This document shows positions 13,454-18,972 of a stretch of DNA of 64,000 bases, piece by piece (position 1 is the stretch's first letter; each line of letters opens with the position of its first letter). Both the position numbers and the translations under genes were made by a program. The notes below the pieces were generated by a model. It worked only from the letters and a program-made list of their open reading frames with translations. It searched no databases and was not told where the DNA came from. Source of the DNA: a virus. Location: positions 1 through 64,000 of IMG/VR virus record IMGVR_UViG_3300049893_001613; one strand, written 5' to 3'.

Positions 13454-13546
13454 AACTTTGGGTTTAATGTCCAATACCAAGAGAGTGTTATAATGAACGA
13501 GAGAGCGAAGAGTTGTAATCTGCTCATGCAGACCACAACCCAATGA

Positions 13547-13648
13547 CTAATAGATGCTCATGTGCAAATCCATTGCTCGTGACACAATGAACAAACACAC
13601 GAAGACACCAATAACAATTGTCCAGGCGATAAAATTTTGCTTTCTCAT
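13547..13648 (-). CDS. Small membrane peptide (33 aa), first minus-strand gene
   Basis: Not in track; MRKQNFIAWTIVIGVFVCLFIVSRAMDLHMSIY after an A-rich leader. Confidence 0.55.
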   Translation of the reverse strand: MRKQNFIAWTIVIGVFVCLFIVSRAMDLHMSIY

Positions 13649-13792
13649 GTTTTTTGGGATTTAGGTTAAACATTGACGGGGGTGTTCGACTCCCACCAAA
13701 ACCAGGGGGAGGTTTTTGATAGCGGGTCCCACCCTCTATTCTCATGTCTATTTTTCTGATACCCAAAGCGTTACAATTTTTAACGATTTCTC

Positions 13793-13823
13793 TTGCATCA
13801 TTCAACCCTTTTTCTCACCTTTG
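13793..13823 (+). promoter_or_regulatory. Bacteroidota sigma-A-type promoter (-33/-7)
   Basis: TTGC...CACCTTTG, close to the TTTG/TAnnTTTG consensus, at the start of the plus-strand arm. Confidence 0.55.
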
Positions 13824-14120
13824 CACCTGACACTGCCTGACAAGCAGACGGGTTAGATGGAGCGAAGGAAATAGCTAAAAAACCCCAGAAGTCGGTTTGT
13901 ATGAAGTACCCCTCGAGGAGAAAAAGAGATTCACCGATAGTGTCGAAACTGGTCACTATATAAAAACAGGACCTGGCCGCTAGTTGATTCAATAGCAAAT
14001 AGGGAAGAGCCGGGTAGCTTAAATGCGTAAAGGGACAACCAGCCTGTTTGAAAGTACTGACTTATCCTTGCCCGTGATGTAAAAGTCATGCTTAGGGGTT
14101 CCCCTTATCTGATCGAAACT

Positions 14121-14297
14121 ATGAAAACGCTAGTAACTAAAGAAACCAAGCAGGAAAACATACAGTGTACAGCCTGCTTCTCCTGGTTCAAACCGGGACA
14201 AACAATACGATTTAAACGCCCTCACTACAGACTTAAGGTTTACAGAAGTTTAGATGGGTGCCAGTGCCCTAAGTGTGGCCATTTGATAAAACAATGA
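14121..14297 (+). CDS. Small zinc-ribbon protein
   Basis: CTAC and CPKC pairs; start set at MKTLV. Confidence 0.6.
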   Translation: MKTLVTKETKQENIQCTACFSWFKPGQTIRFKRPHYRLKVYRSLDGCQCPKCGHLIKQ

Positions 14298-14311
14298 GGA
14301 GGATATGAAGG

Positions 14312-14767
14312 ATGAAAACAAATATAGAAATCACTAAGTTCAGGTTTCCTGTATTTAAGTCTTACATATCCGTAGTAGTCTCAAACAACATTCCCAATGC
14401 CATTGATTTCATGGAGGATAAGATGCCCCATAAGATCCATGACCCGGATACAAAGAAGTTTACCCGGGCTTACATGTATGCCTATGAGGATGAACTGAAC
14501 AAAAGGAAGTACTTGCTATTCCTCAGACCTTCAGCCAAGCCTGGGGAGATAGCCCACGAAGTTAAACACCTGATTAACATCATGTTCAAGTGGCATGGAT
14601 ACCGGTTAAGCATCGATAACGATGAGCTGGAGTGCTACTACCTGGAAGATATCGTGGACCGCGTGCATTCTGCTATCCTCCGCTACAAGAAAAAATACAG
14701 TAAGCCCAAAAAAATAATCAGTAAAAAGCTTGACATTCCGGAAGAAACACCTATATTTGCACCATGA
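14312..14767 (+). CDS. Putative zincin-like metallopeptidase
   Basis: IAHEVKH (HExxH) with downstream NDELECY. Confidence 0.7.
   Translation: MKTNIEITKFRFPVFKSYISVVVSNNIPNAIDFMEDKMPHKIHDPDTKKFTRAYMYAYEDELNKRKYLLFLRPSAKPGEIAHEVKHLINIMFKWHGYRLSIDNDELECYYLEDIVDRVHSAILRYKKKYSKPKKIISKKLDIPEETPIFAP
14730..14759 (+). promoter_or_regulatory. Sigma-A-type promoter of tRNA block 1
   Basis: TTGA-N18-TATATTTG; predicted start near 14764. Confidence 0.75.
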
Positions 14768-14853
14768 TAACATTAACACTATCCCCCTTATCGCAGCAGC
14801 GCTATCTCAGTCATACTGGGAAAGAGGGGAGTACTGTGTTTAAAGATAATTAA
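14764..14853 (+). CDS. Leader peptide 1 (29 aa) of putative tRNA attenuator
   Basis: MITLTLSPLSQQRYLSHTGKEGSTVFKDN; codons 6-17 use only L,S,P,Q,R,Y,H, the amino acids of the nine downstream tRNAs. Confidence 0.8.
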   Translation: MITLTLSPLSQQRYLSHTGKEGSTVFKDN

Positions 14854-14889
14854 AGCCTTGTCAGGTTAATTTTTAAGTTAAACGTAAAG

Positions 14890-14915
14890 ACCCCTCCTAA
14901 ACCGAGGGGTTTTTT
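14890..14915 (+). terminator. Attenuator terminator 1
   Basis: ACCCCTC/GAGGGGT plus T run just before tRNA-Pro; 5' arm can pair alternatively with GAGGGG at 14824-14829. Confidence 0.85.
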
Positions 14916-14920
14916 ATTTT

Positions 14921-14993
14921 CTGGGTATATATCAATTGGTAGATTTCGTGCTTTGGGAGCATGAGGCTGGAGGTTCAAGTCCTTCTATCCAGA
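14921..14993 (+). tRNA. tRNA-Pro(TGG)
   Basis: Cloverleaf; loop TTTGGGA; T loop TTCAAGT. Confidence 0.9.
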
Positions 14994-14995
14994 CT

Positions 14996-15067
14996 GTCAA
15001 CATGGTGTAATGGTTAGCACCTAAGATTTTGGCTCTTAGAGTTAGGGTTCGAGTCCCTGTGTTGATA
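14996..15067 (+). tRNA. tRNA-Gln(TTG)
   Basis: Cloverleaf; loop TTTTGGC; TTCGAGT. Confidence 0.9.
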
Positions 15068-15069
15068 CT

Positions 15070-15143
15070 GTGTCTGTAGCTTAATGGCAGAGTCAAGGGT
15101 TGTGGTCCCTTTCGTGACGGTTCGACTCCGTTCAGACACCCCA
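15070..15143 (+). tRNA. tRNA-His(GTG)
   Basis: Cloverleaf; loop TTGTGGT; C73 plus encoded CCA. Confidence 0.9.
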
Positions 15144-15144
15144 T

Positions 15145-15216
15145 CTTCCTTTCGTTTAACTGGAAGGACGCAGCGCTACGAACGCTGTAATCCGGGTTCG
15201 AATCCTGGAGGGAAGA
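15145..15216 (+). tRNA. tRNA-Arg(ACG)
   Basis: Cloverleaf; loop CTACGAA. Confidence 0.92.
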
Positions 15217-15223
15217 CTTTAAT

Positions 15224-15299
15224 GCCCTTGTGGTCAAATTGGAAAAGGCGCCTGACTTAGGATCAGGAGATTTTGCAGGTTCGAAGCCTGCCAGGGGTA
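15224..15299 (+). tRNA. tRNA-Leu(TAG), short variable region
   Basis: Cloverleaf; loop CTTAGGA. Confidence 0.9.
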
Positions 15300-15303
15300 C
15301 AAT

Positions 15304-15376
15304 GCCGTCATGATGGAATGGAATACGTGTCAGACTTAAAATCTGAATTTTGCTGGTTCGAGTCCAGCTGGCGGTA
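15304..15376 (+). tRNA. tRNA-Leu(TAA), short variable region
   Basis: Cloverleaf; loop CTTAAAA. Confidence 0.9.
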
Positions 15377-15382
15377 CAATAC

Positions 15383-15467
15383 GGATGGAGTCCGGCATGG
15401 ACGAGGAAACGGTCTTGAAAACCGCTGGCCCTAACACGGTTCGTGAGTTCGATTCTCACTCCCTCCG
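15383..15467 (+). tRNA. tRNA-Ser(TGA)
   Basis: Loop CTTGAAA, long variable arm, G73. Confidence 0.9.
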
Positions 15468-15473
15468 CTAAAC

Positions 15474-15558
15474 AGAGAGTTAACCTACCAGGGTAGGCAA
15501 GCACTGCTAACGCTTTGGCTCGGGGTATCCGGGTGTGGGTCGCGACCACAGCTCTCTG
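15474..15558 (+). tRNA. tRNA-Ser(GCT), atypical T loop
   Basis: Acceptor AGAGAGT/GCTCTCT, loop CTGCTAA, long variable arm, G73; T loop GTCGCGA. Confidence 0.75.
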
Positions 15559-15563
15559 CATAT

Positions 15564-15635
15564 GCTTCAACACCCAGGGCAGGTGGGACGGTCTGTAAAA
15601 CCGAACCCCATGTAGTTCGAGTCTACTCTGAGGCA
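15564..15635 (+). tRNA. tRNA-Tyr(GTA), atypical
   Basis: CGGT-CTGTAAA-ACCG; GTAG-TTCGAGT-CTAC; short variable region. Confidence 0.75.
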
Positions 15636-15658
15636 CAAAAAATAAAGTTGTAAAAAGA

Positions 15659-15690
15659 TTTGGAAGTTTCAACTATCCTCCTCATCTTTG
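15659..15690 (+). promoter_or_regulatory. Sigma-A-type promoter of tRNA blocks 2/3
   Basis: TTTG-N20-CATCTTTG. Confidence 0.65.
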
Positions 15691-15697
15691 TATCCCT

Positions 15698-15775
15698 ATG
15701 AAGAAAGTATTAAAATCTGAAGAACAAGAGGCAGAAGAGCAATATGCTCCTGTCATCTATTTGGTTAGGATCTAA
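15698..15775 (+). CDS. Glu-rich leader peptide (25 aa) overlapping tRNA-Glu
   Basis: MKKVLKSEEQEAEEQYAPVIYLVRI; 5 Glu in 7 codons just before tRNA-Glu; stop lies inside the tRNA. Confidence 0.65.
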   Translation: MKKVLKSEEQEAEEQYAPVIYLVRI

Positions 15776-15818
15776 CACTTTCAATGTTAAAAAACGAGTT
15801 CGAATCTCGTCAGGAGTA
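15746..15818 (+). tRNA. tRNA-Glu(TTC)
   Basis: Cloverleaf; loop CTTTCAA; TTCGAAT. Confidence 0.9.
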
Positions 15819-15831
15819 CTAAAATTTAAAA

Positions 15832-15915
15832 ATGATGAAAAATTGGTTTAATATAGCGAATACGGTCATTACCATGAGAGATTGTGGCAAGGCTGTGTTA
15901 TATTGGGACCTGTAA
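15832..15915 (+). CDS. Leader peptide 3 (27 aa) of putative tRNA attenuator
   Basis: MMKNWFNIANTVITMRDCGKAVLYWDL after an A-rich leader; first 22 codons use exactly the 13 amino acids of the downstream tRNAs. Confidence 0.85.
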   Translation: MMKNWFNIANTVITMRDCGKAVLYWDL

Positions 15916-15941
15916 GATAGTTTGTATTATGTTTTCTGCAA

Positions 15942-15967
15942 AGGTCCCGTCACAAGCGGGACTTTTT
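15942..15967 (+). terminator. Attenuator terminator 3
   Basis: GTCCCG/CGGGAC plus TTTTT just before tRNA-Ala; AGGTCCC can pair alternatively with GGGACCT at 15905-15911. Confidence 0.85.
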
Positions 15968-15972
15968 CATTT

Positions 15973-16044
15973 GGGGCTAGAGACCAAGGCTGGCTGTTGT
16001 CCTTTGCAAGGATGACGTGGTGGGTTCGATTTCCACTTGCTCCA
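15973..16044 (+). tRNA. tRNA-Ala(TGC)
   Basis: GGGGCTA acceptor with G3:U70; loop TTTGCAA. Confidence 0.85.
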
Positions 16045-16048
16045 CTAT

Positions 16049-16121
16049 AGTTCTGAGGTCAAACGGTTAAGATGTATCACTGTCTATGATTACGGAGCGG
16101 GTTCAACTCCCGTCAGAACTG
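16049..16121 (+). tRNA. tRNA-Asp(GTC)
   Basis: Loop CTGTCTA; G73. Confidence 0.85.
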
Positions 16122-16130
16122 CAAACAAAA

Positions 16131-16203
16131 GGACTGGTAGCTCAGCGGCAGTAGCAAGCGGTTGTTAACCACTAGGTCGTAGGTTCGATCCCTACCTGGT
16201 CCT
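16131..16203 (+). tRNA. tRNA-Asn(GTT)
   Basis: Loop TTGTTAA; TTCGATC. Confidence 0.88.
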
Positions 16204-16208
16204 CACAT

Positions 16209-16330
16209 GGAGAATTCCCAGAGCACGGTGTGAAAAGCCGGAACGCTGGGGGATATAAATCCTTCCCTGTTAAGGGAAGTAACAGCAAGGGTTAAGAGAA
16301 ATCTTCTCCCGCTTTTTAAATTCTCCGCCA
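16209..16330 (+). ncRNA. Unclassified structured RNA with acceptor-like stem and GCCA end
   Basis: GGAGAATT/AATTCTCC-GCCA enclosing three hairpins; no T loop. Confidence 0.6.
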
Positions 16331-16401
16331 CACGTCCCGGGCTAGGGTAGCCAAGCGGTCTCCAAAACCGCAGGACAAGGTTCGATTCCTTGGGAGCGTG
16401 C
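16331..16401 (+). tRNA. tRNA-Trp(CCA)
   Basis: GCGGT-CTCCAAA-ACCGC; TTCGATT; irregular acceptor stem. Confidence 0.82.
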
Positions 16402-16405
16402 TTAT

Positions 16406-16478
16406 TCCGGTGAAGCTCATGTGGAAGAGCTACAGTTTTGTAAACTGAGGGCTGTCGGTTCGAACCCGTCCTCCGGAT
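16406..16478 (+). tRNA. tRNA-Thr(TGT)
   Basis: Loop TTTGTAA; TTCGAAC. Confidence 0.88.
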
Positions 16479-16514
16479 CATGTTAAGATTAAGACATAGG
16501 TCATTCTAAAATAA

Positions 16515-16585
16515 GCTCTTGTAGTTTAATGGAAAAACCTTTGTCTTCTAAACAAAAGATTCCGGTTCGAATCCGGGCAGGAGTT
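16515..16585 (+). tRNA. tRNA-Arg(TCT)
   Basis: TTTGT-CTTCTAA-ACAAA; TTCGAAT. Confidence 0.9.
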
Positions 16586-16588
16586 CAT

Positions 16589-16660
16589 CGACCCTTGGCG
16601 CAATGGTGGCGCAACTGGCTCATAACCAGCAGGACACTGGATCAGTACCAGTAGGGTCAA
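16589..16660 (+). tRNA. tRNA(CAT), Met/fMet/Ile2 identity unresolved
   Basis: Loop CTCATAA; C1xA72 mismatch; atypical T loop ATCAGTA. Confidence 0.8.
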
Positions 16661-16681
16661 CTAATTTAAAACCAATGTACA

Positions 16682-16795
16682 ATGGATGAGCAAGAATACG
16701 AATGGGCTAATGTTGAAAGGCCGGTAAAAGAAGAAGCTGAGGAACCAAAAACCTGCAGCTTAGAAGATGGTGAATGTTTAAGTTGTGGATCATGA
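16682..16795 (+). CDS. 37-aa acidic peptide ending CxxCGS
   Basis: MDEQEYEWANVERPVKEEAEEPKTCSLEDGECLSCGS; fills the gap between two tRNAs. Confidence 0.7.
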   Translation: MDEQEYEWANVERPVKEEAEEPKTCSLEDGECLSCGS

Positions 16796-16827
16796 TAACA
16801 GATAAGAAAGACTACGATAAGCTTAAT

Positions 16828-16899
16828 GCTGTCGTAGCTCCAATGTAGAGCTTCCGGCTTTTAACCGGAAGGTTGTGGGTTCAAGTCCCACCGGCAGTA
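16828..16899 (+). tRNA. tRNA-Lys(TTT)
   Basis: TCCGG-CTTTTAA-CCGGA. Confidence 0.92.
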
Positions 16900-16904
16900 C
16901 AGAT

Positions 16905-16978
16905 GTTGAAGTAATTCAAGTGGTACAGAACCCTCCCTGATAAGGAGGTATGTGGTGGTTCAAATCCATCCTTCAACA
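16905..16978 (+). tRNA. tRNA-Ile(GAT)
   Basis: CCTCC-CTGATAA-GGAGG. Confidence 0.92.
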
Positions 16979-16983
16979 CACAT

Positions 16984-17056
16984 CGGGGTGAGAATTGGTA
17001 TTCCATCGGGTCTCATAAGCCTGACTTCGTGGGTTCGTTTCCCACCGCCCCAACCA
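16984..17056 (+). tRNA. tRNA(CAT), initiator-like
   Basis: C1xA72, loop CTCATAA, encoded CCA. Confidence 0.82.
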
Positions 17057-17057
17057 T

Positions 17058-17130
17058 GGAGACATAACATAGATGGTCTATGTATCCGCCTGAAGAGCGG
17101 AAGATCCTGGATCGTTACCAGGTGGCTCCA
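17058..17130 (+). tRNA. tRNA-Phe(GAA)
   Basis: TCCGC-CTGAAGA-GCGGA; atypical T loop ATCGTTA. Confidence 0.82.
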
Positions 17131-17135
17131 CATAT

Positions 17136-17193
17136 CTCACCCTAAGAGGCTTTGCAGACTGGTACCGGAAAGCAGTAGTGTCGGGTGAGTCCA
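17136..17193 (+). ncRNA. 58-nt mini RNA with 7-bp acceptor stem and UCCA end
   Basis: CTCACCC/GGGTGAG-T-CCA; spaced like a tRNA gene; no D or T arm. Confidence 0.5.
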
Positions 17194-17194
17194 T

Positions 17195-17266
17195 GCTCCT
17201 TTAGTTCACCGGAAGAACGCTTGGTTTACATCCAAGATGCAGGTGGTTCAATTCCATCAGGGAGTA
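17195..17266 (+). tRNA. tRNA-Val(TAC)
   Basis: CTTGG-TTTACAT-CCAAG. Confidence 0.92.
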
Positions 17267-17307
17267 CAGGTAGTTTTGGAGGTTCTCGTGTAAAAAACCT
17301 TCTTCAT

Positions 17308-17383
17308 GCAGTAATAGCTCCCAATGTAGAGCGGTGGTCTTCCAAACCTCAGGCTGTGAGTTCAAGTCTCACTTACTGCACCA
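17308..17383 (+). tRNA. tRNA-Gly(TCC)
   Basis: Loop CTTCCAA; encoded CCA. Confidence 0.9.
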
Positions 17384-17384
17384 T

Positions 17385-17451
17385 GACCATGACGGCCGTA
17401 GAACTCTGTCTGCAAAACAGAGAAACGTGGGTTGAACTCCCACCTTGGTCT
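17385..17451 (+). tRNA. tRNA-Cys(GCA), reduced D arm
   Basis: TCTGT-CTGCAAA-ACAGA; U73; T loop TTGAACT. Confidence 0.75.
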
Positions 17452-17478
17452 CACTGCAAAAATAAATTTTGCATTTTA

Positions 17479-17511
17479 TTTGGAAGTAAACACAATTTAT
17501 GTTTACCTTTA
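17479..17511 (+). promoter_or_regulatory. Sigma-A-type promoter after the tRNA cluster
   Basis: TTTG...TACCTTTA; shares TTTGGAAGT with the 15659 promoter. Confidence 0.5.
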
Positions 17512-17526
17512 CGGGTAGATTAAATT

Positions 17527-17838
17527 ATGGATACTCAAGAGCAACTCCCACCCAATTCTTTCCAGAGCCAAATCTCGGCTCTGGACGGAATTATCCTTAC
17601 TTCAGGATCTACAGCATCCACATCAGTTAACACATGGCATACTCAAGGCATAACCTATTATGACACTACAGGTCAGGTACTGAGAGTAACTAACGGTTCC
17701 CCTCAGTGGATCGATTACACGCAGACAGACTGGGTAAAGCAAGCCAATTACGTGTTGCCTTATTATCAGGACGCTCCGTTAATGGAACCGGCCGACCGCG
17801 GTATTTTCGGTTTAATGCAATTAGTGAAGGATGAATGA
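17527..17838 (+). CDS. Hypothetical protein
   Basis: 103-aa ORF after promoter. Confidence 0.6.
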   Translation: MDTQEQLPPNSFQSQISALDGIILTSGSTASTSVNTWHTQGITYYDTTGQVLRVTNGSPQWIDYTQTDWVKQANYVLPYYQDAPLMEPADRGIFGLMQLVKDE

Positions 17839-17934
17839 GTGCATTAGTAGCCATAACAATAAGCTGGCTCATAGCTCTTGGACTCACAATTTTAAGATAC
17901 AGGATAAACATAGCAAAACATAAACAAACTACCA

Positions 17935-18972
17935 ATGGGAAAATGGTCTTTTCTGAAAGAATACGCAAAACAACAACTAAAATACAATCCGGACCTAACT
18001 ATCACCGACCTGGCAAAACGAGCTCAACAGGAGTTCCAGTCTCAACTGACTCAAAGAAACGTAGAACAGGTCCGTAAAATAATCTCTCGTGAAGTCTGTA
18101 AACAAGACTCACCTTTTGTGCCTGATTCAAGGTTTGATGAACTTGAAGATCTGGCAACAAGCTTGTCTTCCATGATCTACAAGCCCGAACCTATACAGGC
18201 AGTAAGACAAAACAAGTTTGACAAACCAGGTATGTACATTGTCTTGGGATGTGTACATGTTCCCGGCCATAATGTCAGGATGATCAATAGTATCACCAAG
18301 CTTATCGAGGATAAGAAGAATGAAATTCAGGGACTGATGTTAATAGGAGATTTCCTCGACATGAATACTCTGTCAGGTCATAACCGTGGTCAGTTCACTG
18401 CAGTACCAGGACTCACTCTTACACAGGAATACGAAGCCGGTAACAAAGTGCTTGATCAGCTCACAGCTCCACTGTCTCACCGTGTAGTAGATAAAGTCTA
18501 CATCTACGGTAATCATGAAGACAGATGGAACCGTCACATGAGTGACATGCAGAATGCCAAGACTCCCCTGCCCTCCCCCGCGGAGGCCCTTCGTCTGAAG
18601 GAAAGAGGTTTCCACACGTTTACAAACTGGACTTCTGATTACGTAAAACTGGGTAAGCATCTTGAGCTCATCCATGGTCAATACTATAACACCCACTGTG
18701 CTAAACAACACATAGATAAACTGCGTGGTTCAGTACTGTTTGCTCACACTCACCGCATCCAGATGTACGTTGAAGGCAAGACTGCCGGATTCAACATAGG
18801 ATGGTGTGGTGATGTTGACACTCCATTCTTCAACTACGCTGAGCGTGGTACCAAATCACAGTGGCAGAATGGATTTGCTGTTGTGCATGTAGATGAAGAC
18901 GGAGATTACTTCGTCAATCAAATATTCTTTCACAACAATAAATTCTACTTTAATGGAAAATGCTATTCTTAA
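17935..18972 (+). CDS. Calcineurin-like metallophosphoesterase with N-terminal helical domain
   Basis: GCVH (first Asp replaced by Cys), GDFLD, GNHE, HG, AHTH motifs. Confidence 0.9.
   Translation: MGKWSFLKEYAKQQLKYNPDLTITDLAKRAQQEFQSQLTQRNVEQVRKIISREVCKQDSPFVPDSRFDELEDLATSLSSMIYKPEPIQAVRQNKFDKPGMYIVLGCVHVPGHNVRMINSITKLIEDKKNEIQGLMLIGDFLDMNTLSGHNRGQFTAVPGLTLTQEYEAGNKVLDQLTAPLSHRVVDKVYIYGNHEDRWNRHMSDMQNAKTPLPSPAEALRLKERGFHTFTNWTSDYVKLGKHLELIHGQYYNTHCAKQHIDKLRGSVLFAHTHRIQMYVEGKTAGFNIGWCGDVDTPFFNYAERGTKSQWQNGFAVVHVDEDGDYFVNQIFFHNNKFYFNGKCYS

What the first reader, a model, noticed from the sequence alone, without database searches (positions are those of the whole stretch)
14730..17451. Phage tRNA cluster gated by codon-matched leader peptides: a tRNA-depletion sensor covering all 20 amino acids
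Seen in sequence: 24 tRNAs fall into three blocks, each directly preceded by a 25-29-codon ORF. Block 1 (Pro, Gln, His, Arg-ACG, Leu x2, Ser x2, Tyr) follows a leader whose core LSPLSQQRYLSH uses those 7 amino acids only. Block 2 (Glu) follows a leader with EEQEAEE. Block 3 (Ala, Asp, Asn, Trp, Thr, Arg-TCT, CAT x2, Lys, Ile, Phe, Val, Gly, Cys) follows a leader starting MMKNWFNIANTVITMRDCGKAV, which uses those 13 amino acids only. Arg is split by codon box: CGC in leader 1 with tRNA-ACG, AGA in leader 3 with tRNA-TCT. Established: trp/his/ilv-type ribosome attenuation, and host anti-phage anticodon nucleases (PrrC, PARIS AriB, retron PtuAB) that deplete tRNAs. Inference: stalling on any codon whose tRNA is cleaved or uncharged turns on the block holding the replacement, an inducible counter-defence. 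I do not know of this being described for phage tRNA arrays.
Basis: partly seen in the sequence, partly recalled or inferred. Interest (0 to 1): 0.97.

Follow-up and report, generated by a model that had tools for sequence, protein, structure and literature searches.

The report
Codon-matched attenuators gating phage tRNA genes
This crAss-like phage puts its two large blocks of tRNA genes behind tiny test genes, each written only in the codons those tRNAs read and joined to a switchable transcription stop, so it probably makes each tRNA block only when ribosomes read those codons slowly; I found no paper describing this control for tRNA genes.

Summary
The region holds 24 tRNA genes for all 20 amino acids. 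Leader 1 has a 12-codon run using only the 7 amino acids of block 1, with a cognate codon for all 9 of its tRNAs. Leader 3 has a 21-codon run covering all 13 anticodons of block 3. Arg is CGN in leader 1 and AGR in leader 3.

Composition-preserving shuffles reach these runs in 2/20,000 and 7/20,000 trials. The true amino-acid set ranks in the top 1-3 of 77,520 possible sets.

Relatives with the same tRNA order keep all three leaders, with leader-1 peptides rearranged but still in-set. A relative lacking tRNA-Val has the only leader 3 without Val codons. Cultured Cellulophaga phage phi38:1 divides its tRNAs differently, and its three leaders follow that division.

Leaders 1 and 3 have the full 1:2 / 2:3 / 3:4 attenuator layout ending in a terminator that abuts the first tRNA. 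Leader 2 (Glu) has no terminator; its Glu codons pair with the 5' acceptor strand of tRNA-Glu.

Translation, stall-dependent read-through and any anti-defence role are untested. Seven literature searches found no published account. This scan has noted the same design on other phage DNA before.

The parts
14730..14759 (+). Promoter-like site P1: TTG(ACA) at 14730-14735 and a Bacteroidota-type -7 box TATATTTG at 14752-14759, 4 nt before the leader-1 ATG. This implies a leaderless or nearly leaderless transcript.
   Evidence: One search gives an 11/12 match in the sigma-70-type scan. One search finds a TAnnTTTG-type box 4-6 nt before the ATG in 6 of 7 leader-1 homologues. That TAnnTTTG is the Bacteroidota -7 element is from my own knowledge, not tested here.
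14764..14853 (+). Leader 1 ORF (29 codons). The control run is codons 6-17 (14779-14814, LSPLSQQRYLSH). It uses only P, Q, H, R, L, S and Y and holds a cognate codon for each of the 9 tRNAs of block 1.
   Evidence: Seven distinct homologues all cover 9 of 9 tRNAs, and their Arg codons are always CGN.
14776..14830 (+). Leader 1 switch. Region 1 (CCCCUU, 14784-14789) lies inside the control codons and pairs with region 2 (AGAGGGGA, 14823-14830). Region 2 can instead pair with the 5' arm of the terminator.
   Evidence: folds with and without the ribosome-covered part; region 2 is the best upstream partner of the terminator arm, -11.6 kcal/mol, reached by 1.2% of shuffles; same place in all 7 homologues.
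14886..14920 (+). Intrinsic terminator T1: a GC-rich stem, a 7-nt loop and a U-tract, ending 1 nt before tRNA-Pro.
   Evidence: conserved in 6 of 6 further homologues.
14921..15636 (+). tRNA block 1: Pro(tgg), Gln(ttg), His(gtg), Arg(acg), Leu(tag), Leu(taa), Ser(tga), Ser(gct), Tyr(gta), with spacers of 1-6 nt.
15659..15690 (+). Promoter-like site P2: TTTG at 15659-15662 and a degenerate -7 box CATCTTTG at 15683-15690, 7 nt before the leader-2 ATG.
   Evidence: A box ending in TTTG lies 4-7 nt before the ATG in 11 of 11 homologues; 10 of them have TAnnTTTG.
15698..15775 (+). Leader 2 ORF (25 codons). Its Glu-rich stretch EEQEAEE lies at 15719-15739, and the ORF runs 30 nt into tRNA-Glu. There is no terminator.
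   Evidence: There are 4-5 Glu codons in the last 10 codons before the tRNA in 11 of 11 homologues. ATG-to-tRNA distances differ by multiples of 3 in 10 of 11, and a relative has a 3-nt deletion at 15718.
15732..15752 (+). Hairpin between the last Glu codons and the 5' acceptor strand of tRNA-Glu ('anti-acceptor').
   Evidence: 83% of cells paired, 2 pairs with compensatory changes, reached by 7 of 500 shuffles. Slid controls pair at 55% or less.
15746..15819 (+). tRNA-Glu(ttc).
15832..15915 (+). Leader 3 ORF (27 codons). The control run is codons 2-22 (15835-15897) and uses only A, D, N, W, T, R, M, K, I, F, V, G and C. Every one of the 13 anticodons of block 3 has a cognate codon (AGA for Arg; ATT, ATA and ATG are all present). 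The last 5 codons are out of set.
   Evidence: 9 of 10 distinct homologues cover 13 of 13 anticodons.
15845..15912 (+). Leader 3 switch. A long 1:2 hairpin is formed by the two halves of the ORF. Region 2 (UUGGGACCUG, 15903-15912) lies in the last codons and is complementary to the 5' arm of the terminator.
   Evidence: 92.9% of cells paired, 0 of 500 shuffles reach this; antiterminator -14.6 against terminator -13.7 kcal/mol. Region 2 and the terminator arms change together between the window and its relatives.
15941..15971 (+). Intrinsic terminator T3, ending at the first base of tRNA-Ala.
15972..17450 (+). tRNA block 3: Ala, Asp, Asn, Trp, Thr, Arg(tct), CAT (initiator-like), Lys, Ile(gat), CAT, Phe, Val, Gly, Cys. 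Window-specific inserts interrupt it at 16205-16331 and 16662-16827.
   Evidence: relatives have 5-6 nt and 49-76 nt at these two places.

Best explanation
The array is two transcription units, each under ribosome-mediated (leader-peptide) attenuation.

Layout. Host-type promoters sit 4-7 nt before the start codons of leader 1 and leader 2, so each transcript begins at or next to an AUG. Leader 1 lists one or more codons for each of the nine tRNAs of block 1. Leader 3, which lies just after tRNA-Glu, lists a cognate codon for every anticodon of block 3.

Decoding fast. If all listed codons are read quickly, the ribosome runs on over region 2. The terminator hairpin then forms and transcription stops 1-2 nt before the first tRNA.

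Decoding slow. If any listed codon is read slowly, because the cognate charged tRNA is scarce, the stalled ribosome holds region 1. Region 2 is then free to pair with the 5' arm of the terminator, and the polymerase reads through into the tRNA block. The result is closed-loop control of phage tRNA supply, resolved by codon.

Leader 2. It is Glu-rich, runs into tRNA-Glu and has no terminator. Its Glu codons pair with the 5' acceptor strand of the tRNA, so it may couple Glu decoding to folding or processing of tRNA-Glu. That part is a weaker inference.

Shown from sequence and comparison: the codon matching, the conservation, the co-variation with block content and the three alternative pairings. 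Inferred: translation of the leaders, the direction of the switch, which polymerase transcribes the array, and the physiological trigger.
For: 1. Codon matching is far beyond chance: shuffles give 2/20,000 and 7/20,000 and 0-2/4,000 in each relative. The true set is in the top 1-3 of 77,520.

2. The match holds at tRNA level. All 7 leader-1 variants hold codons for both Leu and both Ser isoacceptors and use only CGN for Arg. Every leader-3 variant uses AGR for Arg, and 9 of 10 hold ATT, ATA and ATG.

3. Relatives were found through a neighbouring protein, not through the leaders. They have the same tRNA order and all three leaders. Leader-1 peptides differ in residue order but not in composition.

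4. The leaders co-vary with block content. The one array without tRNA-Val has the only leader 3 without Val codons. Cultured Cellulophaga phage phi38:1 partitions its tRNAs differently, and its leaders B and C are the unique best fit among 38,760 sets.

5. Terminators abut the first tRNA of blocks 1 and 3. The best upstream partner of each terminator 5' arm lies at a constant place just after the control run. Region 2 and both terminator arms change together across lineages (leader 3: window against relatives; leader 1: L022 against the rest).

6. With the ribosome-covered part masked, the lowest-energy fold switches from terminator to antiterminator in 5 of 7 leader-1 RNAs and in 4 of 10 leader-3 RNAs at one or more stall positions.

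7. The leader-3 1:2 hairpin and terminator are 92.9% paired with compensatory changes; 0 of 500 shuffles reach this.

8. Out-of-set residues occur only in the ORF tails that encode region 2. Stalling there would not favour read-through.

9. Length differences in the leaders are multiples of three.
Against: There is no expression, Ribo-seq or Term-seq data; no RNA run holds this sequence.

In the window's leader 1 and in most leader-3 RNAs the terminator stays the thermodynamic optimum even with region 1 masked. Read-through would therefore have to be kinetic.

Leader 2 has no terminator.

One relative (L042) has no leader 1 at all, so the device is dispensable. One leader 3 (G006) carries an out-of-set Ser codon.

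crAss-like phages can use their own RNA polymerases (my knowledge). Whether those obey such terminators is unknown.

Leaderless translation is assumed from promoter spacing only.

All covariation rests on about 10 related sequences and few independent events.
Confidence: 0.8

Rival explanations
1. The switch is the same, but its purpose is specifically counter-defence. Host anticodon nucleases cut tRNAs, ribosomes stall on the matching leader codon, and the phage turns on the block that holds a replacement tRNA.
For: The architecture would respond to the loss of any single tRNA species. It is resolved down to isoacceptor, with separate codons for both Leu, both Ser and both Arg tRNAs. Published work proposes that phage tRNAs replace tRNAs cut by host nucleases (PMC10264068; the PARIS preprint listed).
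Against: Nothing here links the array to a defence system. The host is unknown, and no nuclease-resistance features of the tRNAs were tested. The leaders cover all amino acids rather than the few tRNAs that known nucleases target (my knowledge). Amino-acid starvation, or simple demand from late-gene translation, would trip the same switch.
Confidence: 0.25
2. The leaders are translated and codon-matched, but they act after transcription. Ribosome position would control folding, RNase P or RNase E processing, or stability of the polycistronic tRNA precursor. The hairpins with U-tracts would be constitutive partial terminators or processing signals.
For: Leader 2 has no terminator, yet it is conserved and pairs with the acceptor strand of tRNA-Glu. 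In several RNAs the terminator remains the most stable fold when region 1 is masked.
Against: The 5' arm of each terminator has a conserved, co-varying upstream partner. That is expected for an antiterminator and is not needed for a processing signal. The hairpin plus U-tract lies 1-2 nt from the first tRNA in all relatives.
Confidence: 0.1
3. The small ORFs serve only to load ribosomes on an otherwise untranslated transcript, for instance to shield it from Rho or to couple transcription. The terminators would insulate the array from neighbouring genes, and the composition match would have no sensing role.
For: tRNA operons are untranslated and could be exposed to Rho (my knowledge). The leaders sit directly at the transcript start.
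Against: This gives no reason for a leader to hold exactly the codons of its own block, to separate CGN from AGR, or to follow a different partition in phi38:1. It gives no reason for region 2 either.
Confidence: 0.04
4. The match is chance, or comes from selective reading: many small ORFs exist in six frames and the reader picked 'cores'.
For: It also ignored the other spacers in block 3, one of which holds a Glu-rich ORF in front of tRNA-Lys.
Against: together with conservation in relatives that were found independently of the leaders.
Confidence: 0.01

Closest known systems
Multivalent leader-peptide attenuators of enterobacterial amino-acid operons (ilvGMEDA leader: Ile/Leu/Val; thr leader: Thr/Ile; also trpL, hisL, pheL, leuL)
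   Same: A short ORF rich in regulatory codons, a 1:2 / 2:3 / 3:4 set of alternative hairpins, an intrinsic terminator before the regulated genes, and ribosome stalling as the signal. The comparison with these operons rests on my knowledge; the features themselves were tested here.
   Different: The regulated genes are tRNAs, not biosynthetic enzymes. The valency is 7 and 13 amino acids (9 and 14 tRNA species) instead of 1-3. Each codon appears once or a few times rather than in long runs. The transcripts look leaderless. The host is probably Bacteroidota and the element is viral. The weak Rfam hit to His_leader (25 bits against a cut-off of 49) is not membership.
T-box riboswitches
   Same: Both control transcription read-through according to the supply of a particular charged tRNA.
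   Different: T-boxes bind uncharged tRNA directly through a specifier codon and need no translation. They control aminoacyl-tRNA synthetase and amino-acid genes. No T-box match was found in the region at E up to 1.
Anabaena sp. PCC 7120 trn operon (26-tRNA array on a megaplasmid)
   Same: A long accessory tRNA array that is silent by default and switched on when translation is impaired (PMC8421152; PMC10272220).
   Different: There the control is a protein repressor, TrcR, acting at the promoter. Neither 'leader peptide' nor 'attenuat' occurs in PMC8421152. That array is bacterial, not viral.
Phage tRNA arrays in general (T4, T5, mycobacteriophage cluster C1)
   Same: Clustered tRNA genes in a lytic phage, thought to supply or replace host tRNAs (PMC10264068).
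   Different: I found no report that such arrays are gated by codon-matched leader ORFs.
Cellulophaga phage phi38:1 (NC_021796.1), a cultured phage of Cellulophaga baltica
   Same: It has the same design: three units of leader, terminator and tRNA block.
   Different: It is an unrelated phage (72.5 kb, Pervagoviridae) with a different partition of tRNAs. Glu shares a block and a leader with Pro, Gln, His, Leu and Arg(acg). The leaders are unannotated or hidden inside gp066 and gp070.

Membership tests
Ribosome-mediated (leader-peptide) transcription attenuator | A short ORF with start and stop codons at the 5' end of the transcript, upstream of the regulated genes | tested here: met
   The ORFs are kept in all relatives except leader 1 of L042.
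Ribosome-mediated (leader-peptide) transcription attenuator | The ORF is enriched in codons that report on the regulated function | tested here: met
   Here the codons are those read by the downstream tRNAs.
Ribosome-mediated (leader-peptide) transcription attenuator | An intrinsic terminator between the leader ORF and the regulated genes | tested here: met
   Leaders 1 and 3. Leader 2 does not meet this: it has no terminator.
Ribosome-mediated (leader-peptide) transcription attenuator | An antiterminator (2:3) that competes for the 5' arm of the terminator | tested here: met
   the partner lies at a constant position in 17 of 17 leader RNAs, with shuffle fractions of 0-0.07, and it changes together with the terminator. 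It becomes the lowest-energy fold under masking in only some of the RNAs.
Ribosome-mediated (leader-peptide) transcription attenuator | An anti-antiterminator (1:2) that overlaps the control codons | tested here: met
Ribosome-mediated (leader-peptide) transcription attenuator | The leader is translated, and stalling raises read-through | not testable with these tools
   No RNA holder was listed for this sequence. This needs Ribo-seq, Term-seq or reporter assays.
Rfam His_leader (RF00514) | A score at or above the gathering cut-off of 49 bits | tested here: not met
   25.1 bits, E = 0.56, at 14767-14917.
T-box riboswitch | A match to the T-box covariance model (specifier loop and T-box sequence) | tested here: not met
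   No T-box match at E up to 1 in 13500-18500.
Phage tRNA gene array | Several tRNA genes clustered head to tail in a phage genome | tested here: met
   24 tRNAs. The genome has a crAss-like terminase, portal and major head protein.

The most novel reading that the evidence does not exclude
Codon-matched leader attenuators would be a general, so far undescribed way in which phages of several unrelated lineages read the host's decoding capacity codon by codon. Each replacement tRNA block would be switched on only when one of its tRNAs is missing, including after attack by host anticodon nucleases. A second, terminator-free version (leader 2) would let ribosome position on Glu codons decide whether tRNA-Glu can fold and be processed.
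Probability: 0.3. Interest if true: 0.95.

Novelty: new variant of a known kind. Interest (0 to 1): 0.86.

Why it matters
Why phages carry tRNAs has been argued for decades: codon compensation, replacement of degraded host tRNAs, or escape from anticodon nucleases. How tRNA arrays are regulated has hardly been asked.

If this device works as read, it shows that the phage itself measures decoding speed, codon by codon, and makes tRNAs on demand. That favours supply-and-demand or depletion models over a constitutive supplement.

It would also extend leader-peptide attenuation in three ways. The targets would be RNA genes. The valency would rise to 13 amino acids. The setting would be Bacteroidota-type, Shine-Dalgarno-poor and possibly leaderless.

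The leaders also give an independent read-out of which codons each phage tRNA is meant to serve, for example ATA, or CGN against AGR.

Because the cultured phage phi38:1 has the same design, the idea can be tested at the bench.

Tried and rejected
The closest relatives, with 87% and 72% identity in the neighbouring protein and held on Logan contigs, could not be fetched.
- No RNA holder was listed. Read laying on four DNA runs gave only contig pieces and a truncated list of variants. The only usable item was a 3-nt in-frame deletion in leader 2 of the 85-kb relative.
- Near and distant DNA searches of the deposited phage collection found no syntenic array. A tblastn search with the leader-3 peptide found nothing.
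- Loci found through the metallophosphoesterase neighbour have no array beside that gene.
- The strict pattern TTTG-N17-23-TAnnTTTG is not enriched in the window (5 found, 2.8 expected). The promoter reading therefore rests on conservation at the leaders only.
- My first terminator finder failed on several RNAs and was replaced.
- A first leader-2 alignment used wrong coordinates and was redone.
- Column-wise counting of the leader-3 antiterminator was not possible, because MAFFT shifts the window's terminator arm. Per-sequence duplex tests were used instead.
- A tRNA-Ala-like stretch after terminator A of phi38:1 was not confirmed by ARAGORN or Rfam. Ala and Asn in that leader are therefore unmatched.
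- I first read the leader-1 homologue of G002 in the wrong frame, from a gapped alignment. This was corrected by ORF extraction.

Full report
**What is there**

The window is the first 64 kb of a complete 96,443-bp viral record. Its terminase, portal and major head protein are of the crAss-like type. The terminase is about 30% identical to those of gut crAss-like phages and of Flavobacterium and Cellulophaga phages.

ARAGORN at default settings finds 20 tRNAs. Rfam confirms 19 of them above its cut-off. It gives sub-threshold matches for Cys, Ala and the second CAT tRNA. It does not report Tyr, which therefore rests on ARAGORN alone.

The three small ORFs are real: 14764-14853, 15698-15775 and 15832-15915.

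- Block 3 is interrupted in the window by spacers of 127 nt and 166 nt.
- The second spacer holds a Glu-rich 37-aa ORF in front of tRNA-Lys.
- Leader 2 overlaps tRNA-Glu by 30 nt and has no terminator.

**Is the match more than chance?**

I scored the longest run of block amino acids in any ATG-ORF of each upstream region.
- Dinucleotide-preserving shuffles reach the observed 12-codon run of leader 1 in 2 of 20,000 trials, and the 21-codon run of leader 3 in 7 of 20,000. None reaches the run with all set members present.
- Among all 77,520 amino-acid sets of the same size, the true set is one of three (leader 1) or the only one (leader 3) that gives so long a run.

The match also holds at the level of individual tRNAs.
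- The leader-1 run has codons for both Leu isoacceptors (CTN and TTR), for both Ser isoacceptors (TCN and AGY), and CGC for Arg(acg).
- Leader 3 has AGA for Arg(tct), together with ATT, ATA and ATG.

**Relatives**

No deposited phage has a syntenic array. I therefore searched with the 151-aa protein encoded just upstream. I aligned its homologues and found loci in IMG/VR. Their complete records hold arrays of about 22-24 tRNAs elsewhere in the genome.

These arrays were found without any reference to the leaders. They have the same tRNA order and the same gaps of about 108 nt and about 160 nt around tRNA-Glu. All three leaders are present. A scan with a leader-3 motif added more arrays from viral and metagenome contigs.

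Leader 1. Seven distinct versions differ in length and in residue order: LSPLSQQRYLSH, QYLRPSQQHSLPSYL, LSLHSSRPYQQLSLL, LRPLQHSYSLL and others. Each run uses only P, Q, H, R, L, S and Y. Each covers all nine tRNAs, and Arg is always CGN. Shuffles reach these runs 0-1 times in 4,000.

Leader 3. Nine of ten distinct versions cover all 13 anticodons, and Arg is always AGR.

Leader 2. It keeps an E.EE motif three to six codons before tRNA-Glu in 11 of 11 versions. Length differences are in multiples of three.

**Co-variation with block content**

Two cases test the prediction that a leader follows the content of its own block.

1. G006, a 123,893-bp relative, lacks tRNA-Val(tac) and the first CAT tRNA. 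Its leader 3 is the only one without a Val codon. This is a single event, with odds of roughly 1 in 8 by chance.

2. The stronger case is the cultured Cellulophaga phage phi38:1 (NC_021796.1). It is an unrelated 72.5-kb phage whose roughly 22 tRNAs are split differently:
- Leader with run KTIMNIATDIRTKGVK, then a terminator, then Lys, Ile, Gly, Met, Asp, Thr, Val, Arg(tct), Ile(tat).
- Leader with run YNNFSWYSNCSFSSYN, then a terminator, then Tyr, Ser, Ser, Asn, Trp, Phe, Cys.
- Leader with run LLHQEPLEQLRLP (Arg = CGA), then a terminator, then Pro, Glu, Gln, His, Leu, Arg(acg).

For the second and third leaders, the true set is the unique best of 38,760 sets. Each leader fits its own block far better than any other block of either phage.

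**Mechanism**

Each of leaders 1 and 3 is followed by a GC-rich hairpin and a U-tract that ends 1-2 nt before the first tRNA.

In all 17 distinct leader RNAs, the best upstream partner of the terminator's 5' arm lies at one constant place. In leader 1 it comes just after the control run. In leader 3 it lies in the last codons. The duplex energies are similar to those of the terminators themselves, and shuffles reach them in 0-7% of trials.

This region 2 changes together with the terminator:

| Leader | Lineage | Region 2 | Terminator 5' arm |
|---|---|---|---|
| 3 | window | UUGGGACCUG | AAGGUCCCGU |
| 3 | relatives | GUUGGAGCCA | AAAGGCUCCAA |
| 1 | most lineages | GAGGGG | CCCCUC |
| 1 | L022 | GGGGCU | AGCCUC |

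Region 2 is itself paired with region 1, which lies inside the control codons.
- In leader 3 this is a 32-pair hairpin formed by the two halves of the ORF. Together with the terminator it is 92.9% paired, with compensatory changes. No shuffle of 500 reaches this, and slid controls pair at 51.5% or less.
- Folding with the ribosome-covered 5' part masked turns the lowest-energy structure from terminator to antiterminator in 5 of 7 leader-1 RNAs, and in 4 of 10 leader-3 RNAs at one or more stall positions. Masking up to the stop codon restores the terminator.
- Out-of-set residues occur only in the ORF tails that encode region 2.

This is the anatomy of a trp/ilv-type attenuator. In the window's own leader 1, and in most leader-3 RNAs, the terminator remains the thermodynamic optimum. 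The switch would therefore have to be kinetic.

**Promoters**

A box of the form TAnnTTTG, with TTTG(G) about 20 nt upstream, lies 4-7 nt before the ATG in 6 of 7 leader-1 versions. In leader 2, 10 of 11 versions have TAnnTTTG and the window has the degenerate CATCTTTG.

From my own knowledge this is the Bacteroidota housekeeping-promoter form. It would make the transcripts leaderless or nearly so. A strict genome-wide pattern is not enriched in the window, so this reading rests on conservation only.

Leader 3 has no room for a promoter of its own. It would be transcribed from P2 through tRNA-Glu.

**Leader 2**

Leader 2 has no terminator. Its last Glu codons pair with the 5' acceptor strand of tRNA-Glu. 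When the acceptor stem changes (C to U at stem position 2 or 5), the Glu codon changes synonymously (GAG to GAA) so that pairing is kept. There are two compensatory pairs, reached by 7 of 500 shuffles. The tRNA's own acceptor stem serves as a control and is 100% paired.

A ribosome paused on the early Glu codons would free the tRNA to fold. This is a suggestion only.

**Comparison with what is known**

The design works like the multivalent leader attenuators of ilvGMEDA and thr. It meets every sequence-level defining feature of that class for leaders 1 and 3. It is not a member of any curated RNA family: the His_leader match scores 25 bits against a cut-off of 49, and there is no T-box match.

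The nearest functional analogue in print is the Anabaena trn array. That array is induced by translational stress, but through the protein repressor TrcR (PMC8421152, PMC10272220).

Seven full-text searches found no account of leader-peptide control of tRNA genes. The phi38:1 transcriptome paper does not discuss phage tRNA leaders.

This scan has noted the same design on other phage DNA many times, and once on this same window. Those are unchecked AI notes. I used them only as leads, and I tested the Cellulophaga lead myself.

**Verdict**

- The attenuator reading is well supported by sequence statistics, conservation, co-variation and RNA structure for two of the three leaders.
- Translation, the direction of the switch and the trigger remain inferred.
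- The counter-defence purpose is only one possibility. Plain feedback on decoding capacity explains the anatomy equally well.
- It is a new variant of a known kind of regulation, acting on a new class of target. A cultured model, phi38:1, is available for testing.

Noticed in passing
window 16662-16827 (ORF 16682-16795, +): The spacer between the first CAT tRNA and tRNA-Lys is 166 nt here but 49-76 nt in relatives. It holds a 37-aa ATG-ORF rich in Glu and Cys, with a KEEAEE stretch that resembles leader 2. The 85-kb relative in run X3 covers it. It does not fit the leader-to-block rule, and its role is unknown.
   Followed up: partly
window 16205-16331: A 127-nt insert lies between tRNA-Asn and tRNA-Trp, where relatives have 5-6 nt. 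It contains a perfect 7-bp hairpin (CTTCCCT/AGGGAAG). No RNA family matches it.
   Followed up: no
window 16589-16661: The first CAT tRNA has a C1xA72 mismatch and A73, which are marks of a bacterial initiator tRNA (my reading of the sequence). G003-type relatives carry a long-arm tRNA-like gene with anticodon TAT at this position. G006 has nothing there.
   Followed up: partly
window 14312-14767 (+): The 151-aa protein just upstream has an invariant HEVKH (HExxH) motif and belongs to phrog_1365, of unknown function. It may be a small metallopeptidase. In the 120-kb relatives it lies about 7 kb from the array, so the array and its leaders move as a unit.
   Followed up: partly
window 14767-14917: There is a weak Rfam match to His_leader (25.1 bits, E = 0.56, below the cut-off of 49). 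It is driven by the ORF-plus-terminator layout and is not membership.
   Followed up: yes
L042:1406-1476 region (metagenome contig Ga0068871_100075547): This relative has no leader 1 and no terminator. A protein-coding frame runs up to tRNA-Pro, while leaders 2 and 3 are intact.
   Followed up: partly
L033:5060-5170 (G003-type relatives): An insertion of about 120 nt lies between tRNA-Glu and leader 3. It encodes a 40-aa ORF that is absent from the other arrays.
   Followed up: no
L049 (NC_021796.1 35283-35360, 36744-36833, 37987-38076): The three tRNA leaders of Cellulophaga phage phi38:1 are unannotated or mis-annotated. One lies inside gp066, one is an internal start within gp070, and one lies opposite the antisense 'gp067'. 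Several of its tRNAs (Met, Ile-tat, Tyr, Ser-tga, Trp, Cys, Pro, Glu) are missing from the record, and some are covered by 'hypothetical protein' calls.
   Followed up: partly
G000:C1:82062-82150 (-), outside the window: A lone 89-nt tRNA-Ser(aga) lies far from the array, on the opposite strand.
   Followed up: no
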